Virus record (IMG/VR): IMGVR_UViG_3300005613_000227
Source: a virus
Reading direction: 5' to 3' (one strand)
DNA: 34,325 nucleotides
The first letter of the stretch is position 1. Every line of letters begins with the position of its first letter. Positions 8,391-28,970 of the stretch are shown here, piece by piece. The notes under the pieces were generated by a model that made no database searches, had not been told where the DNA came from, and was given only the letters and a program-made list of their open reading frames with translations. Made by a program: the position numbers and the translations under genes.

Positions 8391-8633
8391 TTAGTCTTCT
8401 AAAAATTCTTTAGTAACGATTCCATTATCACTCAAGATGTGATGTAGTGTAATCCATTGCTCCAAGTATTTTGCCTTTAATTCCTTGTATAATTTTGGTT
8501 TATCAGGATTTAACTTTAAGATTTCTCTCAAGTTTTCTAAAGCCTCTGTAAGGCTATCGTACTTTTTGACCATATCCTCAACGACTTTTGTTTTTGTTCT
8601 AGTAGTAATGTTTTTATAATATTTGTTTTTCAT
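8391..8633 (-). CDS. Hypothetical protein (80 aa), minus strand
   Basis: ORF preceded by the leader AATCAACATTAACCTTATAAATTAAACGCT-ATG in gene orientation. Confidence 0.6.
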   Translation of the reverse strand: MKNKYYKNITTRTKTKVVEDMVKKYDSLTEALENLREILKLNPDKPKLYKELKAKYLEQWITLHHILSDNGIVTKEFLED

Positions 8634-8646
8634 AGCGTTTAATTTA

Positions 8647-8655
8647 TAAGGTTAA
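8647..8655 (-). promoter_or_regulatory. TTAACCTTA leader box (for gene 8391..8633)
   Basis: Exact 9-mer in gene orientation, 13 nt upstream of the ATG. Confidence 0.5.
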
Positions 8656-8668: not shown

Positions 8669-8839
8669 TTATTTTATCCCCTTTCTTGCTTTCCATCTCG
8701 CAACCATTTGTTCGTGAGTTTTTAATGCGTTTGCTCTGTAAGCCTCCTTTTCTTTTTGAGTTTCACGAATTTCGTTTACTGCGTTATTGAATTGCTCTTT
8801 TGAGATTCCTAAAAGTTTGAGTGATTGTGCTTGTGTCAT
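8669..8839 (-). CDS. Small protein (56 aa), possibly DNA-binding; first gene of the minus-strand operon
   Basis: Below the track cutoff. Sequence: MTQAQSLKLLGISKEQFNNAVNEIRETQKEKEAYRANALKTHEQMVARWKARKGIK. It is preceded by a TTAACCTTA leader and a promoter-like box. Confidence 0.45.
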   Translation of the reverse strand: MTQAQSLKLLGISKEQFNNAVNEIRETQKEKEAYRANALKTHEQMVARWKARKGIK

Positions 8840-8850
8840 AATGTTTTTTA

Positions 8851-8859
8851 TAAGGTTAA
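8851..8859 (-). promoter_or_regulatory. TTAACCTTA leader box (for gene 8669..8839)
   Basis: Exact 9-mer, 11 nt upstream of the ATG. The context ATTAACCTTATAAAAAACATT-ATG is identical to the leader of gene 28491. Confidence 0.5.
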
Positions 8860-9852: not shown

Positions 9853-9861
9853 TTAACCTTA
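9853..9861 (+). promoter_or_regulatory. TTAACCTTA leader box (gene 9872)
   Basis: Exact 9-mer, 10 nt upstream of the ATG. Confidence 0.5.
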
Positions 9862-9871
9862 TATAACACTT

Positions 9872-10348
9872 ATGAAAAAATCAGAAATCTTAGAAAACCT
9901 CTCAGAAAACTTCTACTACCAACTTAAAGATATCATCGACAGTATTAACTTTCAGTTGATGTTAAACAATAGCGAAACGCTACACAATGTTTCACTTACA
10001 AAACAAAACTGCACAAAGCACAAACGCTTCACAAATGAAGTAAAAGAATTAGAAAGAATCTCCAAAAAACTTGCAGACTTTGCGAGGTTTGAATGTTCTT
10101 TGAATTTCTTACTTACATTTGATGATTTATATTTCGTAGAAGTCACACTCGATTGGGATGGAAATTTAGGAATCACTTATGCAGGTTGCCATTACGATCT
10201 TATGGTTGGTCACAGTAAATTCGGAAAACAATTTGTTAAGGATTACTCAGATTGGGAAAAAGCAATCTCAGGCATCGCATCAGATGACTACGGATTCCAA
10301 TCAGACAAGGACATCCAATGGGAAGCCTTAAAGTCTAAAGTCGCTTAA
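9872..10348 (+). CDS. Hypothetical early protein (158 aa)
   Basis: ORF behind a promoter cassette and leader box. No motif recognised. Confidence 0.6.
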   Translation: MKKSEILENLSENFYYQLKDIIDSINFQLMLNNSETLHNVSLTKQNCTKHKRFTNEVKELERISKKLADFARFECSLNFLLTFDDLYFVEVTLDWDGNLGITYAGCHYDLMVGHSKFGKQFVKDYSDWEKAISGIASDDYGFQSDKDIQWEALKSKVA

Positions 10349-16186: not shown

Positions 16187-16195
16187 TTAACCTTA
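16187..16195 (+). promoter_or_regulatory. TTAACCTTA leader box (gene 16208)
   Basis: Exact 9-mer, 12 nt upstream of the ATG. Confidence 0.5.
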
Positions 16196-16207
16196 ATAAA
16201 AACACTT

Positions 16208-16522
16208 ATGAAAAACTTATCACAAATCGAATTAACTAACGAAAAACAAATCGGCTCACTATTAACAAAAAAAATGGAGTGGGTTATCGCCAAGCATATC
16301 AAGACAGGTAGATATAACCTAATGGAAGTTTTCTTTGATGGACAATTCAGAGGAGGTGCTTGGAGATATGCACTTAACAAAGGTAAGGATGGCTTACTAA
16401 GAAGAAGCGAAAAAGACAATGAGTGTCACCACGCTAAAAAACGCTCTTTAGAAAAGTATGAGTTTGTAAAAACTGTAAATATGAAATGGATAAACGAATT
16501 TAAATCAGCATCTATTGCTTAA
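16208..16522 (+). CDS. Hypothetical early protein (104 aa)
   Basis: AT-rich ORF behind a promoter cassette and leader. Confidence 0.6.
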   Translation: MKNLSQIELTNEKQIGSLLTKKMEWVIAKHIKTGRYNLMEVFFDGQFRGGAWRYALNKGKDGLLRRSEKDNECHHAKKRSLEKYEFVKTVNMKWINEFKSASIA

Positions 16523-16535
16523 ACTTTAATCAACA

Positions 16536-16544
16536 TTAACCTTA
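16536..16544 (+). promoter_or_regulatory. TTAACCTTA leader box (gene 16562)
   Basis: Part of the 17-mer AATCAACATTAACCTTA, in an intra-operon gap. Confidence 0.5.
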
Positions 16545-16561
16545 ATAAATTATATAACACT

Positions 16562-16999
16562 ATGGAAACAATCGTAACAAAACCAATCATCACTTCCAAC
16601 CTTGGAACAACAAGCGAAGTCTGCACTTTCGTTTTACCATCAGAGGGAACTTATTACTTAGCAGGAACAGTTCTTTTGACAGTCGAATATCATCAAATGG
16701 GAGAAGACTACACTCAATCCAAAATGACTATCACAGAGATCAACGACAAGTCAGGAGATGTAACAACCTATGATGACATTGATGACATCCGAACAATCTT
16801 AATCAATGCTTATTCAGGAGGACAACTCAACTCAAGAACAACTCAGGTTAAAAGAGAGTTTTGGTTGGAGTTCCCTAAAGACAGTTTATTCAACTACCAC
16901 AAAGGAAACTCAGTCTGCGAAAAATTTACTCTGATTGAGTGGGTTAAAGAAAAGATAAAGGAGAAAGCCAAAAGAAAGGAATTAGAATTTTCGTTATAA
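16562..16999 (+). CDS. Hypothetical early protein (145 aa)
   Basis: ORF with leader box. No motif recognised. Confidence 0.6.
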   Translation: METIVTKPIITSNLGTTSEVCTFVLPSEGTYYLAGTVLLTVEYHQMGEDYTQSKMTITEINDKSGDVTTYDDIDDIRTILINAYSGGQLNSRTTQVKREFWLEFPKDSLFNYHKGNSVCEKFTLIEWVKEKIKEKAKRKELEFSL

Positions 17000-17024
17000 A
17001 ATAGGGTTAATAACACAAAAAAGG

Positions 17025-17051
17025 GCATCTTGAAAAAGATGCTTTTTTTTT
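17025..17051 (+). terminator. Rho-independent terminator
   Basis: Stem GCATCTT/AAGATGC, GAAA loop, T9 run. Confidence 0.7.
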
Positions 17052-17062
17052 ACTTTTTTTTA

Positions 17063-17103
17063 ATTTAGGACTTGCAATTCGTTAAACTTGGTTTAACTTA
17101 ATA
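17063..17103 (+). promoter_or_regulatory. Early promoter cassette (24/25 identical to 28417..28441)
   Basis: ATTTAGGACTTGCAATTCGTTAAAC. TTGCAA at 17072..17077, GTTAAAC at 17081, GTTTAAC at 17091, TTAATA at 17098. Two phased T-tracts lie upstream. Confidence 0.45.
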
Positions 17104-17116
17104 ATCATAATCAACA

Positions 17117-17125
17117 TTAACCTTA
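17117..17125 (+). promoter_or_regulatory. TTAACCTTA leader box overlapping the ATG of gene 17125
   Basis: Part of the 17-mer AATCAACATTAACCTTA. The usual AAAAACACTATG tail reads AAAAACACTATC here and is now coding. Confidence 0.45.
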
Positions 17126-17370
17126 TGAAAAACACTATCAAAATTACAAAACATAAAAATTTCCACGGCTACAATGCATCAGTATCTAATGGCAAGCAAT
17201 ACTACATTGATTTTAACCACGAAGCAGAAAGAGATTCAGCTTGGTGCTTATTCGAGTGTACAGACGAACAAGTAAGAGACGGCTATGAGTTTAATGGCTT
17301 TGCATTAACTAACGCAAGCACCAAGAGAGAGTTAGTAGAGTGCATCAAATATTGGAACAACATAGACTAA
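17125..17370 (+). CDS. Hypothetical early protein (81 aa)
   Basis: ORF behind a promoter cassette. Confidence 0.55.
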   Translation: MKNTIKITKHKNFHGYNASVSNGKQYYIDFNHEAERDSAWCLFECTDEQVRDGYEFNGFALTNASTKRELVECIKYWNNID

Positions 17371-17379
17371 GATTTAATT

Positions 17380-17883: not shown

Positions 17884-17892
17884 TTAACCTTA
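17884..17892 (+). promoter_or_regulatory. TTAACCTTA leader box (gene 17907)
   Basis: Exact 9-mer, 14 nt upstream of the ATG, in an intra-operon gap. Confidence 0.5.
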
Positions 17893-17906
17893 AAAATAAA
17901 AACACT

Positions 17907-18173
17907 ATGGAAAACTATTACGCAAAAGCTAACGCAATTAACGAAGCCTTCGGACTTCCTGAGTGGAATGAATATGACACTCTCAAAGTAAAAGGAGAAC
18001 TTATTAAAACTTATTATTTACGCTCTCGATGGGCAATGATCGAAGCCTATGAGAAAGGATTTCTTGTCTATAATTGCGTTGTCGGAACTAAACATTATTG
18101 CGAAACTTGGAACAAGGCAAAAGAATTGAGGCAACAACTCTCTGATAGATATACTGCTATTGAAAGATTTTAG
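17907..18173 (+). CDS. Hypothetical early protein (88 aa)
   Basis: ORF with leader box. Confidence 0.55.
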   Translation: MENYYAKANAINEAFGLPEWNEYDTLKVKGELIKTYYLRSRWAMIEAYEKGFLVYNCVVGTKHYCETWNKAKELRQQLSDRYTAIERF

Positions 18174-18202
18174 TGAAATAAGGTTAAATAAATACAAACA
18201 AA

Positions 18203-18228
18203 AGACTCTCTTCGGAGGGTCTTTTTTT
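18203..18228 (+). terminator. Rho-independent terminator
   Basis: Stem AGACTCTC/GAGGGTCT, TTCG loop, T7 run. Confidence 0.7.
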
Positions 18229-18229
18229 G

Positions 18230-18476
18230 TTTCCAAAGTCGTTGGAAATTGCTTGGAAATGGCTATCCTCGAAAAAGGGCATTTTCCAATGCCTTGGAAA
18301 TTTGTAAGTTTACCCAATTGCAAGGACTTAGAGTTAAATTTCCAATGCTTTTCCAAGCGTTTTGGAAATTTCTTCCAACCTATATAGTAATATGGAAGAA
18401 TATTCCGAGGAACTTGTTTCCACCGACTTCAAAATCAGTCGGAGGAAACAGTTCCAAGATTCCAAGCTTTTGGAAG
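18230..18476. repeat. Iteron-like array of TTGGAAA / TTTCCAA boxes (candidate origin or protein-binding array)
   Basis: Full 7-mers start at 18230(R), 18242(F), 18253(F), 18283(R), 18294(F), 18339(R), 18350(R) and 18362(F). TTCCAA/TTGGAA partial copies start at 18373, 18452, 18460 and 18470. Neighbouring boxes are 11-12 bp apart. Confidence 0.75.
18416..18449. repeat. Inverted repeat / hairpin inside the array
   Basis: GTTTCCACCGACT, an 8-nt loop, then AGTCGGAGGAAAC (13-bp arms with 1 mismatch). No T-run follows. Confidence 0.6.
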
Positions 18477-18488
18477 TCTGTGACAGAT

Positions 18489-18516
18489 TTGACAACAGGT
18501 TGAACTTTGTTAGATA
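18489..18516 (+). promoter_or_regulatory. Sigma70-like promoter for the packaging operon
   Basis: TTGACA (18489..18494), a 16-nt spacer, then TAGATA (18511..18516). The in-frame ATG at 18525 lies at the same 31-nt distance from the -35 box as in the 8947 promoter. Confidence 0.35.
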
Positions 18517-18794
18517 TGTTGATTATGGATAATACCGAAGAATTGAATGCTCTCAGAGATTTGAGAGAAACCAACCTAGCGATCAAAGAGCTAGAACAAC
18601 AACAAGCCATTGTCTCCAAAAACTTCAAGCGAGGGATTAGGCTTTTACAGAGAGAGGCAGCAATGACTGAATCTCAGATTGATGACGGAGGAGTGATGGA
18701 AGGATGCGAGTCTTGGAATGTAAGACACGAATCAATCAAACAACTAATCAGCAATCCCTGCATTGAGAACATCCCTGAAGATAATAATGTTTAA
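18516..18794 (+). CDS. Hypothetical coiled-coil protein (start uncertain: 18507 TTG, 18516 ATG or 18525 ATG)
   Basis: ORF containing NTEELNALRDLRETNLAIKELEQQQAIV. Its stop overlaps the next start (TAATG). Confidence 0.5.
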   Translation: MLIMDNTEELNALRDLRETNLAIKELEQQQAIVSKNFKRGIRLLQREAAMTESQIDDGGVMEGCESWNVRHESIKQLISNPCIENIPEDNNV

Positions 18795-19277: not shown

Positions 19278-19380
19278 TTAGGTACTATAAAACCAAACAC
19301 AAAAGCAAGGCACAAGCGAGCCTCTGCATTTTTGAGACTTTCTGTCGCAAAACCTTTTAAAATAAATTTAACAATATAAA

Positions 19381-19890
19381 ATGAAAGAACCAACTTGGTC
19401 ACAGATAGCCTCAGAGCTAGGCGTTACTCCTGTCACAATGTCCAAGTGGAGGTCAACCCATCCTGACTGTCCAAAGGATTCTAAAAAGATCGAGGATTGG
19501 AAACTGTGGCTTCAGGAGCGAGAACTTGGAGGCAAGGGATCAGGCAGAGTCGCAGTTGATGGGAAGGAATATACTGCTGCCGACATTCACGATCTGAAGG
19601 CGAAGCTGATTGCAGCACAGGAGAGGCGAGAGAATGCGATGGCACAGATTCGAGAAATCGAATTGCAACAGAAGAAAGATAATTTAATTCCTGAATCGGA
19701 AGCGACTGAGAAACTTATAAAACTACTAACTCCTCTAAGAAGATTGCTCGATGCCTTACCAAGGCAAATAGCATCTCAAGCAAATCCCCAAAATCCAAAC
19801 ATTGCAGAACTTGCAGTTCGCAATGGCTTAGACGATAGAGTCTTCGCTGAGATTGAGAAAATAATGAAGGACAATAGTGGCGAAGCGTAA
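19381..19890 (+). CDS. terS: Terminase small subunit (Nu1-like, N-terminal HTH)
   Basis: TWSQIASELGVTPVTMSKWRS is an HTH at the N-terminus. The middle of the protein is coiled-coil. It lies upstream of a GpA-type large terminase. Confidence 0.55.
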   Translation: MKEPTWSQIASELGVTPVTMSKWRSTHPDCPKDSKKIEDWKLWLQERELGGKGSGRVAVDGKEYTAADIHDLKAKLIAAQERRENAMAQIREIELQQKKDNLIPESEATEKLIKLLTPLRRLLDALPRQIASQANPQNPNIAELAVRNGLDDRVFAEIEKIMKDNSGEA

Positions 19891-20287: not shown

Positions 20288-21076
20288 ATGTCAACACGAA
20301 TGAACATAAACGCTCAGGGCTTCAATAATATGATAAGAGCATTGAGCAAAAAGACAGGAGCATCTTATAAAGATGTTATTCGAGGAGTTACATCTTCAGT
20401 CCTGACAAGATCAGCACAATTAACAAAAGGTTCTTCAGCTAAGAAGATCACAGAAGATGTAAATCGGATGCTTCGCAAACCTTACAAGACAAGAGACGGA
20501 GATTTGATTGCAGTCGCAAAGGATGGTCAGGTTTGGTATAATGGTTCAGGTTGGCAGAAAGACAGATGGATCAAAGTCAATGGAGACGGAAGATTAAAGA
20601 ATGTCGGAAAGACAGTTTTGAGAACAGGAAGACAAGCAGGTCAACAAGCCACTATTTCATCTCAGCTAAGAGCGAGAATCAATAAGGCAGTCAGAGAAGC
20701 GAAGGAAACAAAGACTCAACAATTAAAATATAAGAAGGCTCGGATTCACGCAGGCAAAAAATCTTTTCTTGAAATATTAAAGAAGCTCAGGATTCCAATC
20801 GCCAACACAAGAGGAATCGGAAAAGCAATGAAAGCAATTACTGATCCTGAACTTGGAAGGGCAGTTCAGGGCTTCCAAAGTAAATCTTCAAAAACAGACT
20901 ATGAGATTACAATTAAATCACACGCTCAATCTGCATTGAATCCTCACTCAGGAGGAATCTTTGCTTTCTCAAGAGCGTTGAATGGTAACATCAAAGCATT
21001 TGAAAAAGCTGCCGAAAAAGATTTGGAAACCTACGCTAAACAATTTGCTTTAAAGAATGGCTTCATTGTCCGATGA
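20288..21076 (+). CDS. Basic hypothetical protein (262 aa) between terS and terL
   Basis: Lys/Arg-rich ORF that overlaps the terL start by 20 nt. Confidence 0.55.
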   Translation: MSTRMNINAQGFNNMIRALSKKTGASYKDVIRGVTSSVLTRSAQLTKGSSAKKITEDVNRMLRKPYKTRDGDLIAVAKDGQVWYNGSGWQKDRWIKVNGDGRLKNVGKTVLRTGRQAGQQATISSQLRARINKAVREAKETKTQQLKYKKARIHAGKKSFLEILKKLRIPIANTRGIGKAMKAITDPELGRAVQGFQSKSSKTDYEITIKSHAQSALNPHSGGIFAFSRALNGNIKAFEKAAEKDLETYAKQFALKNGFIVR

Positions 21077-22868
21077 ATTGGCGAGACTATTCGCTCCTAG
21101 AAAACTCACTTCTCCTGTCGAGTGGGCTTATGAAAACTGTGTCCTGAGGGCTAACATCTCAGAACTGTCAGGAGCGTTAAAAATATTTCCTTACGCTGAA
21201 GAACCTTTAAACGCTTTGGTTGATCCGATGGTCAACAAAGTGACTCTCTGTTGGGGATCGCAAAGTTCAAAGACAACGACAATGTATGCAGGCGTTGCTT
21301 ATCTCTTGTCGGAGTTTCCTAAAGATACTCTTTGGATTATGCCTTCGGCTGAGAATGCGAGAAACTTTTCAAAGGGAAGGTGGCTTCCCTTCGTTGAAGA
21401 TTGCAAACCTTTGATGGATCAATGTCCGATCTCTGCTTCTTCAGGGAAGGTTGATACTGATAAGATTACTAATATGAGACAGGAGTTCCTGAACTGTGTC
21501 CTGACTTTTGCAGGAGCAGGAAGCGAGAACAATGTTAAGTCTGCTCCTGTCGCTTACTTGGTATTAGATGAGATTGATGAGATTGATCCTGACATAAGAC
21601 TCGCAGCACTCGAACGGATTAAGGGAAGGCGAGAATATAAGATTATTCAAACTTCAACTCCGAAGGAAGAGAAGGGAGGAATATGGGAAGAATATATTTA
21701 CGGAGATCAAAGAAAATATTTTATGCCTTGTCCTGAATGCGAAGAGATGATCGAGTTCCAATGGAGACAGAAAGACAAGGAAGGAAAGATGCGATATGGA
21801 ATCGGATTTGATGAAGACTCAAAGATGGATGACGGCTCTTATGATTTTATAAAGGTTGCATCCTCTGCTCACTATCGTTGCCAAAATTGCGACTTCAAGA
21901 TTCTCGATGCTCACAAACCGACAATGATAAAGAATGGAGAGTGGAGACAAATGAATCCTAACGCTCCTTCAGGTCATAGGAGTTATCATTTAAATTCTTT
22001 ATATTCTCCTGCAATGACATTCGCTGATTTGATTGTCGCTTGGCTTCAGGTCAGTTCAAGTATTTATGGATTGAAGAAGTTTGTTCAGGGAAACTTGGCA
22101 GAGGCTTGGAAGGAAGATTGGGTTAATCAGGATGAGAACGAAGCCAATGTTTTAGAATCTAATTATGAAAGAGGAGAACTAAAAGGAGACTTTAGAATCT
22201 TGGCAGTCGATACTCAAACCGATCACTTCCGATTTATTGTTCGAGGATTTGAATCGAGTGGCGAAAGTTATTTAATTGATTTCGGAAGCGTGGCTTCATT
22301 TGTTGACTTGGATAAGATATTCGAGGACAACAAGTGTCACAAGGCAATCATTGACTGTGCAGGAGACCGAACTCAGGAGGTTTATGAAGAAGTATTCAAG
22401 AGAAGAACTCATTGGTTCGGCTCAAGAGGTTGGAAAACAATGGCAGAACCTTATCGTTTGCAACAAAAAGACCCATTCACAGGAGACAACAAGGGAAGAG
22501 CAGGCAGAGGAAAGTTCCTTTATTTACATATTGATAAGAATATTTGGGAATCTGAGATTGCAAAACTCCGATCTCAGCAGTTGTCAGGCTTCTACACTTT
22601 CGCAGACACTCCAAAAGAATACTATGATCAGTTGTTTGCAGTCTATTGGGCGAAGGAAACTGACAGAAGTGGACACATTAAGACAGTCAGGAAGATGAAA
22701 AGGAGTCGAGGAGACCACTATTTTGACTGCGAATGTATGGCAAGGGCGTTAAGTAAGTTTGTGGGAATAGCGAGAGTTGATAGAATGAACGCTCAACCGA
22801 TGGGAGAACAACAACAAAGAAAGCCGAAGAGACCAAGGACTCGACAAACTTCTGAAAGTTGGTGGTGA
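21057..22868 (+). CDS. terL: Terminase large subunit, lambda GpA family
   Basis: Walker A-like WGSQSSKTTT and Walker B AYLVLDEIDE. Zinc-ribbon CPECEEM...CQNC, characteristic of GpA-type terminases. Confidence 0.9.
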   Translation: MASLSDELARLFAPRKLTSPVEWAYENCVLRANISELSGALKIFPYAEEPLNALVDPMVNKVTLCWGSQSSKTTTMYAGVAYLLSEFPKDTLWIMPSAENARNFSKGRWLPFVEDCKPLMDQCPISASSGKVDTDKITNMRQEFLNCVLTFAGAGSENNVKSAPVAYLVLDEIDEIDPDIRLAALERIKGRREYKIIQTSTPKEEKGGIWEEYIYGDQRKYFMPCPECEEMIEFQWRQKDKEGKMRYGIGFDEDSKMDDGSYDFIKVASSAHYRCQNCDFKILDAHKPTMIKNGEWRQMNPNAPSGHRSYHLNSLYSPAMTFADLIVAWLQVSSSIYGLKKFVQGNLAEAWKEDWVNQDENEANVLESNYERGELKGDFRILAVDTQTDHFRFIVRGFESSGESYLIDFGSVASFVDLDKIFEDNKCHKAIIDCAGDRTQEVYEEVFKRRTHWFGSRGWKTMAEPYRLQQKDPFTGDNKGRAGRGKFLYLHIDKNIWESEIAKLRSQQLSGFYTFADTPKEYYDQLFAVYWAKETDRSGHIKTVRKMKRSRGDHYFDCECMARALSKFVGIARVDRMNAQPMGEQQQRKPKRPRTRQTSESWW

Positions 22869-22960
22869 CAAATTTGACAAGTTGCCTATTTTGCCTTTTA
22901 TTTTATTTATTATCTACTTCTTTCGTAATATATATAGCAACTCATATTGTGGTCAGTATG

Positions 22961-22972
22961 TTATAAGGTTAA
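22961..22972 (+). promoter_or_regulatory. Inverted copy of the early-leader box (TTATAAGGTTAA) in the terL 3' region
   Basis: Perfect reverse complement of TTAACCTTATAA, which is found in the leaders at 8647, 8851 and 28471. It lies 5 nt upstream of the terminator stem. Confidence 0.4.
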
Positions 22973-22976
22973 AAGG

Positions 22977-23017
22977 AAAGTCTCTTCGGTTTTGGTAGTT
23001 CCGAAGAGACTTTTTTT
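22977..23017 (+). terminator. Strong rho-independent terminator between terL and the head genes
   Basis: Perfect 13-bp stem AAAGTCTCTTCGG/CCGAAGAGACTTT, followed by a T7 run. Confidence 0.8.
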
Positions 23018-23045
23018 ATATAAATTGACAAATAAACTTTTTTAG

Positions 23046-23288
23046 ATGGCATCGACAACTCCACTAGCAACACTTGTTCAAATTAGAGACAAACTTCTAA
23101 CTGCTTATTTAAAATTAGCAGAAGAGGGAGTTTCAAGTTATTCAATCGGAGATCAAACTTTTACTTTAAAAGACACAGGAAACATTTTAAACGAAATCGA
23201 GAGATTAGATAGGTTGATAGCCTTGAAAGATAGAACTCTCGGAGGAGGAGGACGAAACAGAATAACATTAAAGAACTTCGATGGCTAA
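23046..23288 (+). CDS. gpW-like head-tail joining protein
   Basis: 80 aa, positioned between terminase A and portal B as in lambda. Helical LLTAYLKLAEEG..IGDQTFTLKD..ILNEIERLDRLI pattern. Confidence 0.5.
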   Translation: MASTTPLATLVQIRDKLLTAYLKLAEEGVSSYSIGDQTFTLKDTGNILNEIERLDRLIALKDRTLGGGGRNRITLKNFDG

Positions 23289-24735
23289 GAAAAAGAAACC
23301 TTCAAGATTAGGATTTGCAACCAAGCAATTCCTGAAAGCATTCAGAGGATATGATGCAATAAAGAACACTCGCTATCGTGCGAGAAGAGGCTATGATGCT
23401 ATTCGATCCGAAGAGATTGAGTTAAGTAATTACGACAGAGATAAATTAATCTCTGCTGCTTTAGAATTTAGAAGAAACAATCCTGTCGTTGCTTCAATGT
23501 CTCGATTGAGAAAAGCCGACATTGTTGGAAGAGGAATTATTCCACAAGCGAACACAGGAGATGAAGCTCTCGATTCCAAGATTGAAGAGGAGTGGGCAGA
23601 GTTCAGTCACGATCCTGACATTACAGGTCAGTTTGATATGAGAGAGATTCAACAACAAATGGTTGATTCTCTTTTATTCTACGGAGACTGTGGGTTAGTT
23701 GTATTAGATGGAAAGGTTCAATTCATTGACGGCTCTCGAATCGGTAATCCAAAAGGACAAGCAACAGGATCAGAGAAAGACAACTTTCAAAACGGAGTTG
23801 AGATCAACGAAGTTGGAAAGCCTATCAACTATTCTATCGGTAATCGAGTAAATGGAAACCTAAAAGATTATAGATTAATATCAGCTAAAGACTTTATTCC
23901 TTTCTTTAGAAAGATTCGTCCTGTTCAATATCGAGGCATTCCTGAAATAGCAACGATTCTAAACACTCTCCAAGATTGTGATGAATACGATAGAATTGAA
24001 ATGATCTCAGCTAAGGTTGCTGCTTCATTATCGGTTGCAGTTAAGAGACAAAACTCTTATGAGTTTGAATTGCAAAATAGATTGAGTTCAGATGAGCAAG
24101 ATGAGATTGGGGGATTAGAAACTTTCGAGACAGGAAGATTTCATTACTTAGAACCTGACGAAGATGTCAGCGTTATAAGTTCAAACGGCAGACCGAATGT
24201 CGATGGAGTCGAGTGGGTTTCTTACTTGCTTCGTAAAGTAGGAAGTGCAGTCGGCATTCCTTTAGAATTTTTATTAATGGAGATCGGAGGAAGTTCTTTC
24301 TCTGCATCTCAGGGAGTCGTTCTTCAATATCAACAAACAGTTGAGAGTTATCAAACTGATTTGATTAGAGCGATGCAAACACTTTACAAAAGATGGTTGT
24401 CTCAAAAGATAGCCGATGATTCAATCTCAATTCCTTCAGGAGTGGAGAATCCTTTCAAGGTTCGTTGGCAAAGACCTGCATTCAGGTGGATCAATCGAGC
24501 AGCACAAGTAAAAGCTGACTTGGATTATTTCCGAGTCGGTGCAATGAGCTTGGACGATATAACTGCTCCTTTCGGATATACTGCCGAAGATGTTATGGTT
24601 CGCAAAGCTCAGAATATTACAAAAGCAAAACGAATCGCTGAACAGAACGGATTAGATTGGAAAGATTTAATTAATCCATTCCCAACATCACTATCAGGAA
24701 ATTATTCCGAAGTCATTGACGATGCCTCTGCCTAA
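23281..24735 (+). CDS. Portal protein, lambda gpB family
   Basis: 484 aa. RSEEIELSNYDRDKLISAALEFRRNNPVVASM...VGRGI...EEEWAEF...MVDSLLFYGDCG matches the lambda-type portal N-terminal pattern. Synteny also supports the call. Confidence 0.85.
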   Translation: MAKKKKPSRLGFATKQFLKAFRGYDAIKNTRYRARRGYDAIRSEEIELSNYDRDKLISAALEFRRNNPVVASMSRLRKADIVGRGIIPQANTGDEALDSKIEEEWAEFSHDPDITGQFDMREIQQQMVDSLLFYGDCGLVVLDGKVQFIDGSRIGNPKGQATGSEKDNFQNGVEINEVGKPINYSIGNRVNGNLKDYRLISAKDFIPFFRKIRPVQYRGIPEIATILNTLQDCDEYDRIEMISAKVAASLSVAVKRQNSYEFELQNRLSSDEQDEIGGLETFETGRFHYLEPDEDVSVISSNGRPNVDGVEWVSYLLRKVGSAVGIPLEFLLMEIGGSSFSASQGVVLQYQQTVESYQTDLIRAMQTLYKRWLSQKIADDSISIPSGVENPFKVRWQRPAFRWINRAAQVKADLDYFRVGAMSLDDITAPFGYTAEDVMVRKAQNITKAKRIAEQNGLDWKDLINPFPTSLSGNYSEVIDDASA

Positions 24736-26992
24736 ACCAACAAATAGCGAAAAGCAACCTGAGTTCGTAAATCGTTGTATGAGCGATGAAGAAACAGTCA
24801 AAGAGTTTCCTGATGAGAAACAAAGAGTTGCCGTTTGCATTGGTATTTATAAAAGAGAAACTCAACTGAACGAAGGTTCAAATGATAATGTTAGCGAGAC
24901 AGTTGAGAAGGGATTAAAGAAGAAACTCGAAGATCATAGAGAAGCAGTTGGCAAAGACCCAAAGAAGCAAACGACTTTAAGGAAACTCAAGATTGTTTAC
25001 AATCGAGGGATCGGAGCTTACAGAACAAATCCAAGTTCGGTCAGACCTTCTGTTGGTTCTCCTGAACAATGGGCGAACGCTAGAGTCAATTCATTCCTTT
25101 ACGCTTTGAGAAACCTTCGTTACAGAAGTGGGAAACACGATACCGATTTACTTCCAAAGGAACATCCAATCAGGAAGAACATAGAGAAAGATAAAGCAAG
25201 TTTAGATGAACACAGGAGATATGAAGACGGAGAGATTATTCCTTCTGCTCTTCCTCCTGCTTATAGAAAGAGCAGAAAAGATGGAGAAACAAAAGGACAA
25301 GCGTGCATTAATTGCAAATTTTACAAAGAGGATCAGAAGGATCATCGTTTTTATTGCACTAAATTTGAAGCTCCTGTTCGTCCTCAATATTGGTGCAAGG
25401 CTTGGAAAGCAAAAGGCGAAGCATTAGCAGAAACCTACAATGATTATCCTGAGTCAGCTTCAAACAATGCAAAGAGAGCTTTGAAATACAAAGCCGAGAA
25501 TCCTGACAACAAGTGTGGCACTCAGGTTGGTTGGGCAAGAGCTAATCAATTAGCTAAGAAAGAAAGAATTTCAAGAGACACGATTGCTCGAATGGCATCA
25601 TTCAAAAGACATCAACAACATAAAGATGTTCCCTACGATGAAGGTTGTGGAGGATTGATGTGGGATGCTTGGGGAGGAACTTCAGGAGTCGAGTGGGCGA
25701 TCAGAAAACTTAAACAAATTGACAAGAAGGCGAATAGTAAAATGAGTAGCAAACAATATGGATTTTCAGCGTTAAACATTTCCGAGTCTAAAATTGACAA
25801 GGATTCAGGTAAGATGTTTGGAGTCTCTCTCATAAGCGTAGGCGAAGCACTAGGTCACGAATTGTTTGTCGATGACGATAGTCTCGACACAATCCTCCAA
25901 GCGATAGACGGAGAAAAGATTCCTGCTTACATCACTCACAGAGGAGCTTTATTTGAAGACCGACTAACTAGAGAGATCGGAATGTTTACAAACTTTAGAA
26001 CCGAAGGCGACAGACTGATGGCAGACTTTGAAGCCTTCGATTCATTTAGAGAAGACGATGCTCGCAAATACAATCGATTATTCGAGATGGCAGAAAAGAT
26101 TCCTGAGCGATTTGGATTAAGCATTGTATTCTCAGCAACTCAGGCTTGGGCAACTCCTGAAGGAGATGTTGAATTAGGAGCAAGACCTGACAACGCTTTA
26201 TTTGATTTCCCATCAATCAGGGTTGAAGAAGTTACTTCTGCTGACTTCGTTGACACTCCTGCAGCAAATCAAAAAGGACTTTTTTCAAAATTAGATATTA
26301 AACCAACTAGCAAAATGTTAAAATCAGAACTCATCGAAGCAAATGAAAAACTCTCTGCTGAGAACGAAGCTCTTAAAGCTAAGATCGAAGACCAAGAGTC
26401 TGTCGAACAAAAAGCATTAGAAGCTCAAGTCTCACAAGAAGAGGCACAGATTGAGTCAAGCAACGAAGTTCAAGAAGAAACTTCATCCGAAGAAATCCAA
26501 GAGTCTTTCAATAAAGACGAAGAGATGGCAGTCACAGACAATGAGAAAACTATCAACAAAGGTGGTTCTCAAGGTTTAGAAGGTCACGAAGATGAAGAGA
26601 AACTTGAAGAAGAAGAAGAAGCTCAAGAGGAAGAAGAAAGCCTTGAAGAGAAAGTTGCTTCGCTTGAATCTGTTATCGAAGACCTAAAGGCAAAACTCCA
26701 AGAGAAGGAAGACGAAATGTCTAAACTTCAGGAGGAACTTGAAGGTCACGAAGAAGAAGAAAAAGAAATGAAAGAAAAGCTCTCCAAGGTAACCGAAGAG
26801 AACTCAAAACTTTCTGCTCTTATCAAAGGAGCTAATCCTATTGAAGTAAGTAAAGAAGACGATTCAACTTGGTCTCCAAGTAAATCTCTTAAAGATCAAT
26901 TCATTAAGGATTATGCTAAAGAAAATAATATTTCAGAATTTACTGCGACTCTTCGCTTAGGCAAAGAGAAGCCTGAACTTTTCAAACTATAA
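24722..26992 (+). CDS. Head maturation protease / scaffold polyprotein with N-terminal accessory modules
   Basis: The ATG at 24722 is preferred over the TTG at 24716. Modules in order: PEFVNRCMSDEETVKEFPDEKQRVAVC; VYNRGIGAYRTNPSSVRP..QWANARVNSFL; Cys4 CINC..C..WC; WARANQLAKKERISRDTIARMASFKRH..WGG; protease-like SLISVGEALGHELFVDDDSL...ITHRG; and an E/K-rich coiled coil at the C-terminus. Confidence 0.6.
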   Translation: MPLPKPTNSEKQPEFVNRCMSDEETVKEFPDEKQRVAVCIGIYKRETQLNEGSNDNVSETVEKGLKKKLEDHREAVGKDPKKQTTLRKLKIVYNRGIGAYRTNPSSVRPSVGSPEQWANARVNSFLYALRNLRYRSGKHDTDLLPKEHPIRKNIEKDKASLDEHRRYEDGEIIPSALPPAYRKSRKDGETKGQACINCKFYKEDQKDHRFYCTKFEAPVRPQYWCKAWKAKGEALAETYNDYPESASNNAKRALKYKAENPDNKCGTQVGWARANQLAKKERISRDTIARMASFKRHQQHKDVPYDEGCGGLMWDAWGGTSGVEWAIRKLKQIDKKANSKMSSKQYGFSALNISESKIDKDSGKMFGVSLISVGEALGHELFVDDDSLDTILQAIDGEKIPAYITHRGALFEDRLTREIGMFTNFRTEGDRLMADFEAFDSFREDDARKYNRLFEMAEKIPERFGLSIVFSATQAWATPEGDVELGARPDNALFDFPSIRVEEVTSADFVDTPAANQKGLFSKLDIKPTSKMLKSELIEANEKLSAENEALKAKIEDQESVEQKALEAQVSQEEAQIESSNEVQEETSSEEIQESFNKDEEMAVTDNEKTINKGGSQGLEGHEDEEKLEEEEEAQEEEESLEEKVASLESVIEDLKAKLQEKEDEMSKLQEELEGHEEEEKEMKEKLSKVTEENSKLSALIKGANPIEVSKEDDSTWSPSKSLKDQFIKDYAKENNISEFTATLRLGKEKPELFKL

Positions 26993-27011: not shown

Positions 27012-27383
27012 ATGTCAACAGTAATAAACGGAACTCAACGCACTTTTACTGCAACAGGCACAATGTCAGCTTACATCTTAACTAAGTTAAATACTGACGG
27101 AACTGTCTCAACTGCAACACAAGTAGCGTCAGGGGAAACTCGTGTAGGCTTCACAACAAGAGAAGTCTTAACAGCAGGGGATTCAACAGGAATCGCTTTG
27201 CTTAATGGTGGTGGTACTGCTTACGGAACAGCAGTAGGCACAATCACTAATGCAGGTACTGCTCTTTACGGAGCAAGTGGTGGTAAACTAGGAACAACTG
27301 CTTCAGGTGGTGTTGTTGGTTTCTCTTTAACTTCAGCATCAGCAGATGATGTTATCGAAGTTTTACTTCACGAATCTGCGTAA
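27012..27383 (+). CDS. Head decoration/cement-like protein (DUF2190-like)
   Basis: 123 aa, G/T/A-rich, located between the protease-scaffold and the capsid gene, as for lambda gpD. Confidence 0.5.
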   Translation: MSTVINGTQRTFTATGTMSAYILTKLNTDGTVSTATQVASGETRVGFTTREVLTAGDSTGIALLNGGGTAYGTAVGTITNAGTALYGASGGKLGTTASGGVVGFSLTSASADDVIEVLLHESA

Positions 27384-28323: not shown

Positions 28324-28352
28324 TACTTTGTTTTATTCATAGTGTTGTAAAA

Positions 28353-28470: not shown

Positions 28471-28479
28471 TTAACCTTA
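28471..28479 (+). promoter_or_regulatory. TTAACCTTA leader box (gene 28491)
   Basis: Exact 9-mer, 11 nt upstream of the ATG. Confidence 0.5.
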
Positions 28480-28490
28480 TAAAAAACATT

Positions 28491-28970
28491 ATGGAAAACA
28501 TCAAATACACACACAAATTCAATAACATCAACGATGCTATCGATCACATTAACCTTACAGAAAGCACACACGCTTCCTACGCAAATAGATTCGAGCAAAT
28601 TCAAAACGCTACATTCAATTACAACACTCACTTAGAAAAGCTAAAACAAATTGAAGCTGACACAGAGAGTGGCGAAATCGAGTGCTTCTACATTATTCCT
28701 AAATTTGAAAATGTTTACTACGGAGATGAGAATAGCTACGATAGCAAATATGAAGAAATCGAAACAATATTTGTTAAAAGAAAATATGACATCAATGTTG
28801 TAAGACAGTTAAACACTTTAGGTGGTGGCTCTCTAACTAATCACGACTTCAAAGTTTATAACGACTTCGGAGACGGACAATTAACTTTTCTAGGTTACTT
28901 AAAAAAATCAAAAAGAGATGAAGTTAGAAAGGTAATGTCAGTTTACGAAAACGCAGTAGTAGTCGCTTAA
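28491..28970 (+). CDS. Moron: hypothetical protein (159 aa) with its own promoter and terminator
   Basis: ORF bracketed by terminators at 28353 and 28992, with an early-type promoter and leader. No motif recognised. Confidence 0.6.
   Translation: MENIKYTHKFNNINDAIDHINLTESTHASYANRFEQIQNATFNYNTHLEKLKQIEADTESGEIECFYIIPKFENVYYGDENSYDSKYEEIETIFVKRKYDINVVRQLNTLGGGSLTNHDFKVYNDFGDGQLTFLGYLKKSKRDEVRKVMSVYENAVVVA

What the first reader, a model, noticed from the sequence alone, without database searches (positions are those of the whole stretch)
22951..23017. Inverted copy of the early-leader box next to a strong terminator downstream of terL: candidate anti-leader sRNA or 3'UTR
The 177-nt gap after terL contains no credible ORF. 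It does contain TTATAAGGTTAA (22961..22972), the perfect reverse complement of TTAACCTTATAA present in the leaders of genes 8391..8633, 8669..8839 and 28491..28970. It also matches the leader of 9872 at 11 of 12 positions. Just upstream, the context cagtATGTT also mirrors the AACAT-TATG start regions of those leaders. The box lies 5 nt 5' of a perfect 13-bp terminator hairpin with a U-run, which is the seed-plus-terminator layout of many trans-acting and 3'UTR-derived sRNAs. A TTGACA box (22874..22879) directly after the terL stop could drive a transcript of roughly 100 nt. Alternatively the element would be the 3' end of the late terS-terL mRNA. My inference is that a late RNA could pair with the leader and start region of early mRNAs and shut them off.
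Basis: inference. Interest (0 to 1): 0.65.

Follow-up and report, generated by a model that had tools for sequence, protein, structure and literature searches.

The report
Orphan anti-leader box beside a terminator
The inverted "leader box" after the phage terminase gene is real and is one of three such copies, each just before a transcription terminator; it is probably the gene-less 3' end of an accessory-gene cassette whose RNA can pair with the start regions of small phage mRNAs, but that pairing has not been shown experimentally.

Summary
TTATAAGGTTAA (22961-22972) is the exact reverse complement of a leader box found 11-18 nt upstream of eight small-gene start codons. It lies 4 nt before a 13-17 bp hairpin with a 7-T run.

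It is not unique. Every other non-leader + strand copy (TAGGGTTAA at 17002, TAAGGTTAA at 18179) also lies 6-12 nt before an intrinsic terminator. In those two units, folding predicts that box and inverted box pair as a 5'-3' closing helix (P about 0.95).

Mosaic breakpoints between related phages fall exactly at boxes and inverted boxes. Relatives with different leader motifs (ACTACTACTA, CACACAC) carry the matching complements (GTAGTAGTAGTA, GTGTGT) before their terminators.

The terL-W junction is a hot spot holding 0-4 accessory genes in relatives. Here it holds only a conserved promoter-like element, no ORF, the inverted box and the terminator. That is an empty cassette that would give an RNA of about 110 nt with an exposed AGGUUAA.

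I read it as the orphan 3' "anti-leader plus terminator" module of a cassette. Trans repression of the four leaders that lack their own inverted box is possible but unproven. The box decays in relatives with 87% terL identity. A relic cannot be excluded. The host is unknown and there are no RNA data.

The parts
22874..22902 (+). Promoter-like element directly after the terL stop: TTGACA (22874-22879), a 17-nt spacer, then TTTATT (22897-22902). The predicted start is near 22909.
   Evidence: Both hexamers are conserved in win/L001/L002/L004, while the spacer varies in sequence but not in length. AAATTTGACAA recurs at 8945, 16140 and 18487 ahead of other units. L193 has TTGACA-17-TATATT at the same position driving a junction cassette. 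Function not shown.
22903..22960 (+). ORF-less body of the gap. It diverges fast: 34 of 89 alignment columns vary among the four closest genomes, with indels.
   Evidence: No conserved ORF on either strand, and no tblastx or blastn similarity to junction genes of relatives.
22961..22972 (+). Inverted leader box (anti-leader) TTATAAGGTTAA. It marks the left edge of the conserved right-hand module.
   Evidence: exact reverse complement of three leaders, 11 of 12 for three more; 0 of 12 columns vary, against 38% to its left. AGGUUAA is predicted unpaired.
22973..23017 (+). Intrinsic-terminator hairpin. The stem is 13 bp perfect (17 bp with A/G-U extension), the loop is TTTTGGTAGTT (22990-23000), and 7 T follow.
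   Evidence: z = -5.0. The stem covaries while the loop GGTAGTT is invariant in L001-L007.
23024..23030 (+). ATTGACA, 15 nt upstream of the ATG of the W-like head-tail adaptor gene (23046). Invariant in all relatives. A second copy after the terL stop flanks the roughly 140-nt insert.
   Evidence: L027 has a single copy and only 24 nt between terL and W. Role unknown.
17002..17050 (+). Second anti-leader plus terminator module (T1): TAGGGTTAA (17002-17010), 6 nt, then hairpin 17017-17050. It starts 3 nt after the stop of gene 16562..16999.
   Evidence: L029 has TAAGGTTAA here. The A-to-G change keeps pairing as G.U. It is predicted to pair with box 16187.
18179..18225 (+). Third anti-leader plus terminator module (T2): TAAGGTTAA (18179-18187), 12 nt, then hairpin 18200-18225. 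It starts 6 nt after the stop of gene 17907..18173.
   Evidence: Homology with L029 resumes exactly at 18178, after a different gene. It is predicted to pair with box 17117.
8644..8655 (-). Leader box TTAACCTTATAA of gene 8391..8633 (12 of 12 to the inverted copy).
8848..8859 (-). Leader box TTAACCTTATAA of gene 8669..8839, whose product looks like a helix-turn-helix protein of 56 aa (12 of 12).
28471..28482 (+). Leader box TTAACCTTATAA of gene 28491..28970, a promoter+gene+terminator insert after the major capsid gene (12 of 12).
   Evidence: (repeat D3)
9853..9864 (+). Leader box TTAACCTTATAT of gene 9872..10348 (11 of 12).
16187..16198 (+). Leader box at the 5' end of unit U1 (gene 16208..16522). 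Predicted cis partner of T1.
16536..16547 (+). Internal leader box of gene 16562..16999.
17117..17128 (+). Leader box at the 5' end of unit U2 (gene 17125..17370; its ATG lies inside the box). Predicted cis partner of T2.
17884..17895 (+). Internal leader box of gene 17907..18173.

Best explanation
The element is the 3' boundary module of an accessory-gene cassette: an inverted leader box ("anti-leader") directly followed by an intrinsic terminator. It sits at the terL-W junction, a hot spot for such cassettes, but in this genome the cassette contains no gene.

In this phage lineage, small accessory genes are built as promoter, leader box (TTAACCTTA, within the first nucleotides of the mRNA and 11-18 nt before the ATG), gene(s), inverted box, terminator. 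On the RNA the inverted box is the last unpaired stretch before the terminator hairpin. It can pair with the leader box and cover the region from about -20 to -9 of the start codon. These mRNAs have no Shine-Dalgarno sequence, so an unstructured leader should matter for initiation.

At two other units the partner lies on the same transcript, giving a 5'-3' closing helix. At 22961-23017 there is no cis partner. A conserved promoter-like element (TTGACA-17-TTTATT) plus the terminator would yield an ORF-less RNA of about 110 nt, and read-through from terL would give the same 3' end. Either RNA carries a free AGGUUAA seed. Any activity must therefore be in trans, most plausibly on the four leaders whose own units lack an inverted box (8644, 8848, 28471 at 12/12; 9853 at 11/12).

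Shown: the sequences, their positions, their conservation pattern, the mosaic breakpoints and the predicted pairings.
Inferred: that the RNAs exist, that the pairing happens in vivo, and that it lowers translation or changes stability.
For: 1. Placement. Outside the two minus-strand leaders, all three + strand copies of TA(A/G)GGTTAA lie within 13 nt upstream of three of the eight intergenic + strand terminator hairpins. The chance of all three landing there is about 4e-8 genome-wide and 8e-5 within the 2751 non-coding bases.

2. Cis pairing. Whole-unit folding pairs each 3' inverted box with the 5'-most leader box. The summed pair probability is 8.5-8.7 out of 9 in U1 and U2. The same holds in L029 and L002, which carry different genes.

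3. Substitution pattern. The only substitution among the three inverted copies (A to G at 17004) keeps pairing as G.U.

4. Module edges. Homology with L029 resumes at 18178, which is the start of the inverted box. Other breakpoints are at 16213-16215, 16520, 17143 and 17877-17883, all at boxes. In the terL gap the inverted box is the left edge of the conserved part: 0 of 12 variable columns against 34 of 89 to its left.

5. Other lineages, other motifs.
- L193: leader ACTACTACTA x2, with GTAGTAGTAGTA before the pre-W terminator, predicted to pair at P about 0.8.
- L194: leaders TACTACTACTATG and ACAACAC, with GTAGTAGTAGTATATAGTGTGTTGT before a terminator.
- L024: CACACAC leaders, with GTGTGTCAGTGTGTGT before a terminator.
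- L020/L026: leaders AATACGAC, with the terminator loop GTCGTAT(T).
Across 31 terminators, complementarity to the genome's own leaders exceeds that to other lineages' leaders by 0.8 nt on average (one-sided Wilcoxon p = 5e-4).

6. Hot spot. Relatives hold 0 genes (L027), 2-5 plus-strand genes (L020, L024, L026, L193, L194), only minus-strand genes (L028), or genes on both strands (L022/L023) at this junction. L193 has its cassette promoter and its anti-leader+terminator at the same relative positions as the window's TTGACA and hairpin.

7. Promoter-like pattern and exposed seed.

8. Leader context. The genome lacks Shine-Dalgarno sequences and the leaders have A at -3, -6 and -12. In Flavobacterium johnsoniae such mRNAs are tuned by secondary structure around the start codon (PMC6847099).
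Against: - There are no RNA data. The host is unknown, so promoter use, termination and chaperones cannot be judged.
- The helices are short and AU-rich. The duplex energy with leaders is about -13.5 to -14 kcal/mol, and several unrelated sites in the genome score as well or better.
- Folding programs will pair any complementary ends.
- Three box-led units (the 8839 operon, the 9872 operon, 28491) have no inverted box at their terminators, so cis closure is not universal.
- The inverted box at this junction is intact only in L001, L002 and L004. It is displaced by about 50 nt and altered in L003/L005 (CATAAGGTTG), and lost in L006/L007 (CATAAGCA). The hairpin loop and ATTGACA stay invariant throughout.
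- A first global test against shuffles was weak. The sense-strand control was almost as high as the reverse-complement score (188 against 180).
- The lineage examples were noticed by eye before the formal test.
- The A-to-G change at 17004 also keeps a stop codon (TAA to TAG), so it is not a unique sign of RNA pairing.
Confidence: 0.45

Rival explanations
1. Evolutionary relic with no present function. The inverted box is what remains of a cassette that was lost or replaced at the terL-W hot spot. It is either the 5' leader of a decayed minus-strand gene or an orphaned 3' linker. It persists in the closest relatives only because too little time has passed.
For: - Minus-strand genes sit at this junction in L022/L023 and L028, and L027 has no insert at all.
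- On the minus strand the window, L001 and L004 read box-15 nt-ATG, followed by ORFs of only 11-21 codons.
- L003/L005 read AACCTTATGAATGAAAAAG. That is leader + ATG + the usual AAAAA with a 4-nt duplication, followed by a 7-codon ORF.
- The box degenerates in L006/L007.
- The left half of the gap evolves fast, with indels.
Against: - L002 lacks the minus-strand ATG, and no minus-strand ORF is conserved.
- No protein-level or DNA-level trace of a gene remains.
- The same inverted box+terminator layout occurs at 17002 and 18179, 3-6 nt after plus-strand stop codons. A minus-strand gene cannot have existed there.
- The box shows 0 of 12 variable columns next to a 38% variable flank.
- Different lineages show the same leader/anti-leader relation with different motifs.
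Confidence: 0.27
2. Recombination linker only. Boxes and inverted boxes are short conserved sequences at cassette borders, used for homologous or microhomology exchange (and possibly inversion) of accessory genes between co-infecting phages. The complementarity has no RNA-level role.
For: - All mosaic breakpoints between the window, L029 and L002 fall at boxes or at the inverted box.
- Gene order and content between these borders differ among phages with more than 94% identical terL.
- Leader regions form a repeat family inside the genome: D3 is 100 nt at 80% identity and I2 is 40 nt at 90%.
Against: - Exchange between phages needs direct repeats, not inverted ones, so this does not explain why the 3' border is the reverse complement of the 5' border.
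- It does not explain the constant position of the inverted copy inside the transcript just before the hairpin.
- Breakpoints at conserved functional sequences are expected anyway.
Confidence: 0.13
3. Double-stranded DNA site for a phage or host DNA-binding protein. Such a protein would recognise the 9-12 bp box in either orientation, for example a regulator bound just downstream of promoters and at unit ends, possibly looping DNA.
For: - The motif occurs in both orientations.
- Promoter-proximal boxes lie within about 10 nt of the predicted transcription starts.
- The genome encodes small proteins that look like helix-turn-helix proteins (8669..8839).
- It has other operator-like palindromes (GTTAAAC-ttg-GTTTAAC at 17081-17097).
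Against: - The box is asymmetric.
- Internal boxes lie between genes of one operon with no promoter, and keep a fixed distance to the ATG rather than to a promoter.
- Inverted copies are always on the transcribed strand, immediately 5' of the hairpin.
- Relatives replace the motif with simple repeats (ACTACT/GTAGTA, CACA/GTGT) that keep only complementarity.
Confidence: 0.08
4. Plain terminator of the terL transcript, with a chance match to the leader box.
For: The hairpin and T-run alone explain the position after terL. AT-rich 12-mers recur more often than uniform statistics suggest.
Against: - A specific 12-mer of this composition is expected about 0.01 times per strand in 34 kb (my calculation from the base counts).
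- 0 of 100 shuffles reach the observed family size.
- Two more inverted copies lie at terminators.
Confidence: 0.03

Closest known systems
5'-3' UTR base pairing within one bacterial mRNA: icaR of Staphylococcus aureus (PMC3868564) and hbs of Bacillus subtilis (PMC5737220)
   Same: A short motif in the 3' UTR, upstream of the terminator, is complementary to the translation-initiation region or 5' UTR of the same mRNA. The pairing is expected to affect translation and/or RNase access. Units U1 and U2 here, and the L193 junction cassette, have this layout.
   Different: - The target is not a Shine-Dalgarno sequence but a lineage-specific leader box in SD-less mRNAs.
- The layout is repeated on several cassettes of one phage, and the motif differs between related phages.
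- At 22961 the 3' motif has no cis partner.
- Nothing has been tested experimentally.
Phage- and prophage-encoded base-pairing small RNAs: anti-sRNAs AgvB/AsxR (PMC4104026), StxS from early termination of the late transcript (PMC7547250), review PMC12197685
   Same: A short non-coding transcript from a phage late region that ends at an intrinsic terminator, with a single-stranded seed just 5' of the hairpin.
   Different: - Those RNAs act on host sRNAs or mRNAs with Hfq in enterobacteria. Here the predicted targets are the phage's own accessory-gene leaders, and the host and chaperone are unknown.
- There is no Rfam match.
- Existence of the RNA has not been shown.
Morons: promoter+gene+terminator inserts between conserved late genes of lambdoid phages (from my own knowledge of the HK97/lambda literature)
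   Same: The position between two conserved head genes (terL and the W-like adaptor), its own promoter-like element and its own terminator. Relatives carry 0-4 genes at the same junction.
   Different: The insert in this genome has no ORF. The cassettes share a leader box and an inverted leader box, which to my knowledge is not a described feature of morons.
Promoter-early stem-loop (PeSL) cassettes that mediate gene shuffling in T4-type phages (from my own knowledge, not checked here)
   Same: Repeated regulatory sequences at the borders of small genes coincide with mosaic breakpoints.
   Different: PeSLs are direct repeats of promoter+stem-loop. Here the 3' border is the reverse complement of the 5' leader. 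The phage is an unrelated lambda-like-head lineage.

Membership tests
Intrinsic (Rho-independent) terminator | G+C-containing stem-loop immediately followed by a U-run | tested here: met
   13 bp perfect stem (17 bp with the A/G-U extension), then 7 T. The 112-nt RNA folds with z = -5.0. The 11-nt loop is unusually long.
Intrinsic (Rho-independent) terminator | Structure rather than sequence is conserved in relatives | tested here: met
   The stem sequence differs in L003/5, L006 and L007 but stays paired. There is one double-sided change among the four closest genomes.
Intrinsic (Rho-independent) terminator | Actually ends transcripts in vivo | not testable with these tools
   No RNA data. 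The downstream head genes must still be transcribed, so read-through or antitermination is possible.
Trans-acting base-pairing sRNA / 3'UTR-derived sRNA | Discrete stable transcript | not testable with these tools
   No transcriptome is available and the host is unknown.
Trans-acting base-pairing sRNA / 3'UTR-derived sRNA | Own promoter or a processing site | tested here: inconclusive
   TTGACA-17 nt-TTTAYT, with conserved hexamers and a variable spacer of constant length, in win/L001/L002/L004. The -10 is weak and the pattern is absent in L003/L005.
Trans-acting base-pairing sRNA / 3'UTR-derived sRNA | Seed complementary to the translation-initiation region of targets | tested here: met
   12 of 12 to three leaders, 11 of 12 to three more and 10 of 12 to two. 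Duplexes are about -13.5 to -14 kcal/mol, within roughly the top 0.1% of genome windows but not the best.
Trans-acting base-pairing sRNA / 3'UTR-derived sRNA | Seed accessible (single-stranded) | tested here: met
   AGGUUAA(AA) is unpaired between two hairpins in the MFE, centroid and consensus folds. UUAUA sits in a weak AU stem.
Trans-acting base-pairing sRNA / 3'UTR-derived sRNA | Seed conserved across relatives that keep the targets | tested here: inconclusive
   Intact in 4 of 8 genomes. Displaced or altered in L003/L005 and lost in L006/L007, although L006 still has a TTAACCTTA leader.
Trans-acting base-pairing sRNA / 3'UTR-derived sRNA | Match to a described RNA family | tested here: not met
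   No Rfam hit at gathering score. The best sub-threshold hits are about 21 bits against thresholds of 50-56, with E = 0.2-0.9.
Cis 5'-3' UTR pairing (icaR/hbs type) | Complementary 5' and 3' segments on the same transcript | tested here: not met
   For the terL-gap copy there is no TTAACCTT on the + strand between 18226 and 22960. The best candidate is an 8-bp CCUUUUAA/UUAAAAGG pairing with the 19381 leader, and the changes in L004 do not support it. The feature is met for the sister modules at 17002 and 18179.
Cis 5'-3' UTR pairing (icaR/hbs type) | Pairing alters translation or stability | not testable with these tools
   Needs reporters or half-life measurements.
Moron / accessory-gene cassette in a late operon | Inserted between two genes that are adjacent in relatives | tested here: met
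   terL and W are 24 nt apart in L027. Other relatives hold 2-5 genes at the junction.
Moron / accessory-gene cassette in a late operon | Carries a protein-coding gene | tested here: not met
   No conserved ORF on either strand. It is therefore best called an empty cassette.
Decayed minus-strand leader | Box followed on the minus strand by a start codon and a conserved (even if truncated) reading frame | tested here: inconclusive
   An ATG lies 15 nt after the box in win/L001/L004, with ORFs of 11-21 codons. L002 has ATT instead. L003/L005 have box+ATG+AAAAA and a 7-codon ORF. No similarity to the minus-strand junction genes of L022/L028.
Protein-binding operator (DNA) | Dyad symmetry or a fixed position relative to promoters | tested here: not met
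   The 12-mer is asymmetric. Three boxes are internal to operons, and distance is kept to the ATG, not to a promoter.

The most novel reading that the evidence does not exclude
This uncultured marine phage lineage builds its accessory genes with a modular RNA grammar: promoter, lineage-specific leader box, gene(s), reverse-complement anti-leader, terminator. Leader and anti-leader co-evolve (TTAACCTTA/TAAGGTTAA, ACTACTACTA/GTAGTAGTAGTA, CACACAC/GTGTGT). They close the mRNA 5' to 3' to set translation or stability in an SD-less system, and they also serve as the joints for cassette exchange. When a cassette loses its gene, as at 22874-23017, the remaining promoter+anti-leader+terminator becomes a trans-acting small RNA that silences the other cassettes' mRNAs. 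This would be a direct route from mRNA 3' end to phage riboregulator.
Probability: 0.22. Interest if true: 0.78.

Novelty: new variant of a known kind. Interest (0 to 1): 0.55.

Why it matters
If the pairing is real, it would be the first case I know of in which a phage uses a shared leader/anti-leader pair as a general design rule for its accessory genes. It would also be a case in bacteria or phages that translate without Shine-Dalgarno sequences, where control through leader structure is expected but few natural regulators are known.

It would give a concrete, testable example of how a trans-acting small RNA can arise from the 3' end of a gene cassette. It would also explain why mosaic breakpoints in these phages fall exactly at those short motifs.

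If the element is only a relic, it is still a useful marker of cassette turnover at the terL-W hot spot, but of local interest only.

Tried and rejected
- **Known RNA families.** Rfam gave nothing at gathering score over the whole window. At the locus the best sub-threshold hits scored about 21 bits, including the Bacteroidetes FopS family at E = 0.41.
- **Cultured relatives and host.** Megablast against GenBank phages found nothing. tblastn of terL found only hits at 27% identity or less. The genome-contig scan returned one unrelated 24% hit, and the cluster look-up carried no names. The host stays unknown. The SD-less, A-rich leaders and a BT4734-like primase domain hint at Bacteroidota, but the TTGACA-type -35 elements do not fit the Bacteroidota promoter consensus (from my own knowledge), so I make no assignment.
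- **Is the box widespread?** Scans of IMG/VR with 16-17-mers of the box gave about 150 loci. Nearly all were chance matches inside coding regions of unrelated viruses, and only L178 is a relative. The box is lineage-specific.
- **First global test.** I compared the 25 nt before terminators against leaders using shuffles. The reverse-complement score (188) was barely above the sense control (180), so I judged the test too noisy. I replaced it with a comparison of each genome's own leaders against other lineages' leaders.
- **Cis partner in the late operon.** The only candidate is an 8-bp match to the 19381 leader, and the substitutions in L004 do not support it.
- **Gene remnant in the gap.** blastn-short and tblastx against all relatives found nothing.
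- **More relatives.** A primase-based scan of IMG/VR gave 2 loci and the metagenome scan gave 12, mostly short. That is too few for substitution statistics on the box.
- **16S rRNA, IHF and integron core sites** as explanations for the box. I considered these from memory and dropped them for lack of fit. They were not tested.
- **Hairpin loop as a second seed.** The loop complement ACTACCAA lies at -11..-4 of gene 7902, and AACTAC lies at -9..-4 of the primase ATG. My estimate of the chance probability is about 0.08, so this is left as unexplained.
Full report
**Setting**

The window is a 34,202-bp phage genome assembled with a 123-bp terminal overlap (1-123 = 34203-34325). Its head module is lambda-like:
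- GpA-type large terminase at 21057-22868
- an 80-aa W-like head-tail adaptor at 23046-23288
- portal at 23281-24735
- a 758-aa protein at 24716-26992, whose homologues in relatives carry a weak DUF5824 match
- a 123-aa protein at 27012-27383, whose homologues carry weak cement-protein matches
- major capsid protein at 27403-28323

No cultured phage is close and no host could be assigned. Almost no gene has a Shine-Dalgarno sequence. Leaders are G-poor and A-rich, with A at -3, -6 and -12.

- terL ends at 22868 and the next gene starts at 23046, a gap of 177 nt.
- TTGACA is at 22874-22879.
- TTATAAGGTTAA is at 22961-22972.
- Four nt later comes a perfect 13-bp stem (22977-22989 with 23001-23013), an 11-nt loop, and seven T.

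TTAACCTTATAA occurs perfectly in the leaders of 8391..8633, 8669..8839 and 28491..28970. It occurs with one mismatch before 9872, 17125 and 17907. That is 7 sites against 0.35 expected, and no shuffle reaches 7.

The gap has no ATG-started ORF of 20 aa or more. Its three + strand TTG-started ORFs (32-38 aa) are disrupted by indels in the closest relatives.

**What the leader box is**

The core TTAACCTT occurs 11 times.
- Eight copies lie 11-18 nt upstream of the ATG of small genes of unknown function: 8633-, 8839-, 9872, 16208, 16562, 17125, 17907 and 28491.
- One copy lies inside a coding region.

Three of the eight (8644, 16536, 17884) sit between genes of one operon with no promoter. This argues for a role on the mRNA rather than as an operator.

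Where a promoter-like TTGACA/TTGCAA ... TTATAA precedes the box, the box falls within about the first 10 nt of the predicted transcript.

The carriers are not all early genes. Gene 28491 is a promoter+gene+terminator insert behind the capsid gene, and its 100-nt upstream region is 80% identical to that of 17125 (repeat D3).

**The inverted copy is one of three**

The remaining two TTAACCTT copies are inverted, at 22965 and 18180. A one-mismatch third copy lies at 17002 (TAGGGTTAA). Each sits just 5' of a + strand terminator hairpin:
- 17002-17010, 6 nt before hairpin 17017-17050
- 18179-18187, 12 nt before hairpin 18200-18225
- 22964-22972, 4 nt before the hairpin at 22977

The first two start 3 and 6 nt after the stop codons of 16562..16999 and 17907..18173. 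Outside the two minus-strand leaders there is no other + strand copy.

With eight intergenic + strand hairpins, the chance that three copies all fall within 15 nt upstream of one is about 4e-8 genome-wide, or 8e-5 within the 2751 non-coding bases. The association with terminators is therefore real.

**Predicted pairing in cis**

I folded the two complete predicted units, 16175-17052 (878 nt) and 17105-18228 (1124 nt). In both the MFE and the ensemble, the 3' inverted box pairs with the 5'-most leader box. The summed pair probability is 8.5 and 8.7 out of 9.

The same result holds in relatives with other gene content:
- L029 unit 1: P = 0.95-1.0 over eight of the nine pairs (0.72 for the last)
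- L029 unit 2, with a different gene and a shifted AACCTTA at the start codon: P about 0.8
- L002: P about 1.0

The only substitution among the inverted copies (A to G at 17004; L029 has A) keeps pairing as G.U. It also keeps a stop codon, so it is weak evidence.

Three box-led units have no inverted box at their terminators: the 8839 operon, the 9872 operon and 28491. Their leaders are the ones that match the terL-gap copy best (12/12, 12/12, 11/12 and 12/12).

**Cassette borders**

blastn of 15900-18600 against close relatives shows shuffled small genes. Every breakpoint falls at a box or at the inverted box:
- Homology with L029 resumes at 18178 after an unrelated gene.
- Other edges lie at 16213-16215, 16520, 17143 and 17877-17883.

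In the terL gap the same applies. Among the window, L001, L002 and L004, 34 of 89 columns vary to the left of the box. In the box 0 of 12 vary, and from the box through to the W start codon 11 of 86 vary. The inverted box is the left edge of a conserved "inverted box + terminator + ATTGACA" module.

**The terL-W junction is a hot spot**

- L027 has 24 nt between terL and W.
- L020, L024, L026, L193 and L194 have 2-5 plus-strand genes.
- L028 has only minus-strand genes there, and L022/L023 have two minus-strand and two plus-strand genes.

L193 (terL fragment 81% identical) is instructive. Right after terL it has TTGACA-17-TATATT, then a leader with ACTACTACTA twice, then two genes, then GTAGTAGTAGTA, 16 nt, a terminator, ATTGACA and W. 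Its anti-leader is predicted to pair with the first ACTACTACTA at P about 0.8.

The window has the same frame without the contents:
- TTGACA (22874)-17 nt-TTTATT, with hexamers conserved and a spacer that varies in sequence but not in length in the four closest genomes
- about 60 nt of fast-evolving ORF-less sequence
- the inverted box and the terminator

An RNA from about 22909 to 23017 would be about 110 nt. It folds into a weak 5' hairpin and the terminator, with AGGUUAA(AA) unpaired between them.

**Other lineages, other motifs, same relation**

| Lineage | Leader motif | Complement near a terminator |
|---|---|---|
| L194 | TACTACTCATG, ACAACACTACTCATG, TACTACTACTATG | GTAGTAGTAGTATATAGTGTGTTGT before a terminator |
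| L024 | CACACACAC-rich | GTGTGTCAGTGTGTGT before a terminator |
| L020 / L026 | AATACGAC | GTCGTAT(T) in the loop of the pre-W hairpin |

I spotted these cases by eye, so I then ran a formal test. For 31 intergenic terminators in nine genomes, I measured the longest exact complement between the 30 nt before the hairpin (plus long loops) and size-matched samples of the genome's own leaders. I compared that with the leaders of the other eight genomes. Own leaders scored 0.8 nt higher on average (one-sided Wilcoxon p = 5e-4). The largest excesses were at the window's terL-gap site, L193 and L194, each with a 12-nt match.

An earlier shuffle-based test was weak. At least one self-match (L026 16178) may be trivial because it overlaps a true minus-strand leader. 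I take the trend as real but modest.

**Limits at this particular locus**

- The inverted box is intact only in L001, L002 and L004 (terL 94-99% identical).
- In L003/L005 the related sequence TTTTTCATTCATAAGGTTG lies about 50 nt from the hairpin.
- In L006/L007 it has decayed to CATAAGCA.
- Throughout, the hairpin loop GGTAGTT and ATTGACA remain invariant.
- On the minus strand, the window, L001 and L004 read box-15 nt-ATG, and L003/L005 read box+ATG+AAAAA. L002 has no ATG, no frame is conserved, and no trace of a gene is detectable.
- Duplex energies with leaders (about -13.5 to -14 kcal/mol) are in the top 0.1% of genome windows but are not the best.

**Interpretation**

The element is best described as the orphan 3' module (anti-leader + terminator) of an accessory-gene cassette at a hot spot. 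The module's usual partner is the leader box of its own mRNA.

Pairing would cover about -20 to -9 of the start region. In SD-less translation, initiation is tuned by secondary structure around the start codon (PMC6847099). Comparable cis 5'-3' pairings control icaR and hbs (PMC3868564, PMC5737220).

At 22961 there is no cis partner.

My estimates are:
- 0.45 for the cassette-module / RNA anti-leader reading, within which I put trans activity of this copy at roughly 0.25-0.3 overall
- 0.27 for a functionless relic
- 0.13 for a recombination linker only
- 0.08 for a DNA-binding site
- 0.03 for chance

**Novelty**

No described RNA family matches. The mechanisms invoked are known. The repeated, lineage-specific leader/anti-leader design of phage accessory cassettes, and an ORF-less cassette as a possible source of a small RNA, would be a new variant. 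All functional steps remain to be tested.

Noticed in passing
window 1-123 and 34203-34325: Exact 123-bp direct repeat at the two ends of the window. This is a circular or terminally redundant assembly, and the unique genome is 34,202 bp.
   Followed up: partly
window about 19305-19325; L001, L004, L005 contig starts: Three independent contigs begin 60-77 nt upstream of the ATG at 19381, inside AGGCACAAGCGAGCCTCTGC. This suggests the physical genome end (cos) lies here. Gene 19381..19890 starts with a sequence that looks like a helix-turn-helix (MKEPTWSQIASELGVTPVTMSKW) and is probably the small terminase, rather than 20288..21076.
   Followed up: partly
window 18226-18500: Twelve copies of TTGGAA/TTCCAA (5 + 7) are packed into 275 nt right after terminator 18200-18225. 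This iteron-like array could be an origin, terminase-binding sites or an activator array.
   Followed up: no
window 22990-23000; L001-L007: The 11-nt loop of the terminator hairpin ((T)TTNGGTAGTT) is invariant in seven relatives while the stem covaries. Its complement occurs just upstream of the start codons of 7902 (ACTACCAA) and the primase 13913 (AACTAC). In L020/L026 the loop of the equivalent hairpin is complementary to their leaders (AATACGAC). Unexplained.
   Followed up: partly
window 23024-23030 and 22872-22879; all relatives: ATTGACA lies 15-19 nt before the ATG of the W-like gene and is invariant even in relatives with 70% terL identity, including L027, which has no insert. It is too close to the ATG to be a normal -35. 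A second copy after the terL stop flanks the roughly 140-nt insert like a duplicated target. In L028 the motif is inverted and fits the -35 of the minus-strand junction operon.
   Followed up: partly
window 17081-17097, 28435, 8910, 9791: GTTAAAC-ttg-GTTTAAC is a perfect palindrome between the -35 TTGCAA and the -10 of the 17125 promoter. Single GTTAAAC/GTTTAAC copies lie near other promoters or terminators. These may be operators of a repressor.
   Followed up: no
window 17117-17140: Gene 17125..17370 starts at an ATG created inside the leader box (TTATAA to TTATGA). The position where sister leaders have their ATG reads ATC, 12 nt downstream and in frame. The start codon appears to have migrated into the box.
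   Followed up: no
window 28338-28348: The sequence just before the terminator after the capsid gene contains CATAGTGTT. This is the reverse complement of AACACTATG, which is the start-codon region of 16562 and 17907. It may be another anti-start element or chance.
   Followed up: no
window 8669-8839 (-) and 8860-8983: The only minus-strand genes form a two-gene operon. Its first product (56 aa, MTQAQSLKLLGISKEQFNN...) looks like a helix-turn-helix regulator. It is divergent from a TTGACA-17-TTAAAT promoter whose gene 8983 (dNMP kinase-like) would be nearly leaderless. In L178 the operon has three genes, each with a box.
   Followed up: partly
window, all gene starts: Shine-Dalgarno sequences are essentially absent, with A-rich, G-poor leaders as in Bacteroidia. 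Yet the promoter-like elements have TTGACA/TTGCAA -35 hexamers rather than the Bacteroidota -33/-7 consensus (which I know from memory). The host clade is therefore unclear.
   Followed up: partly
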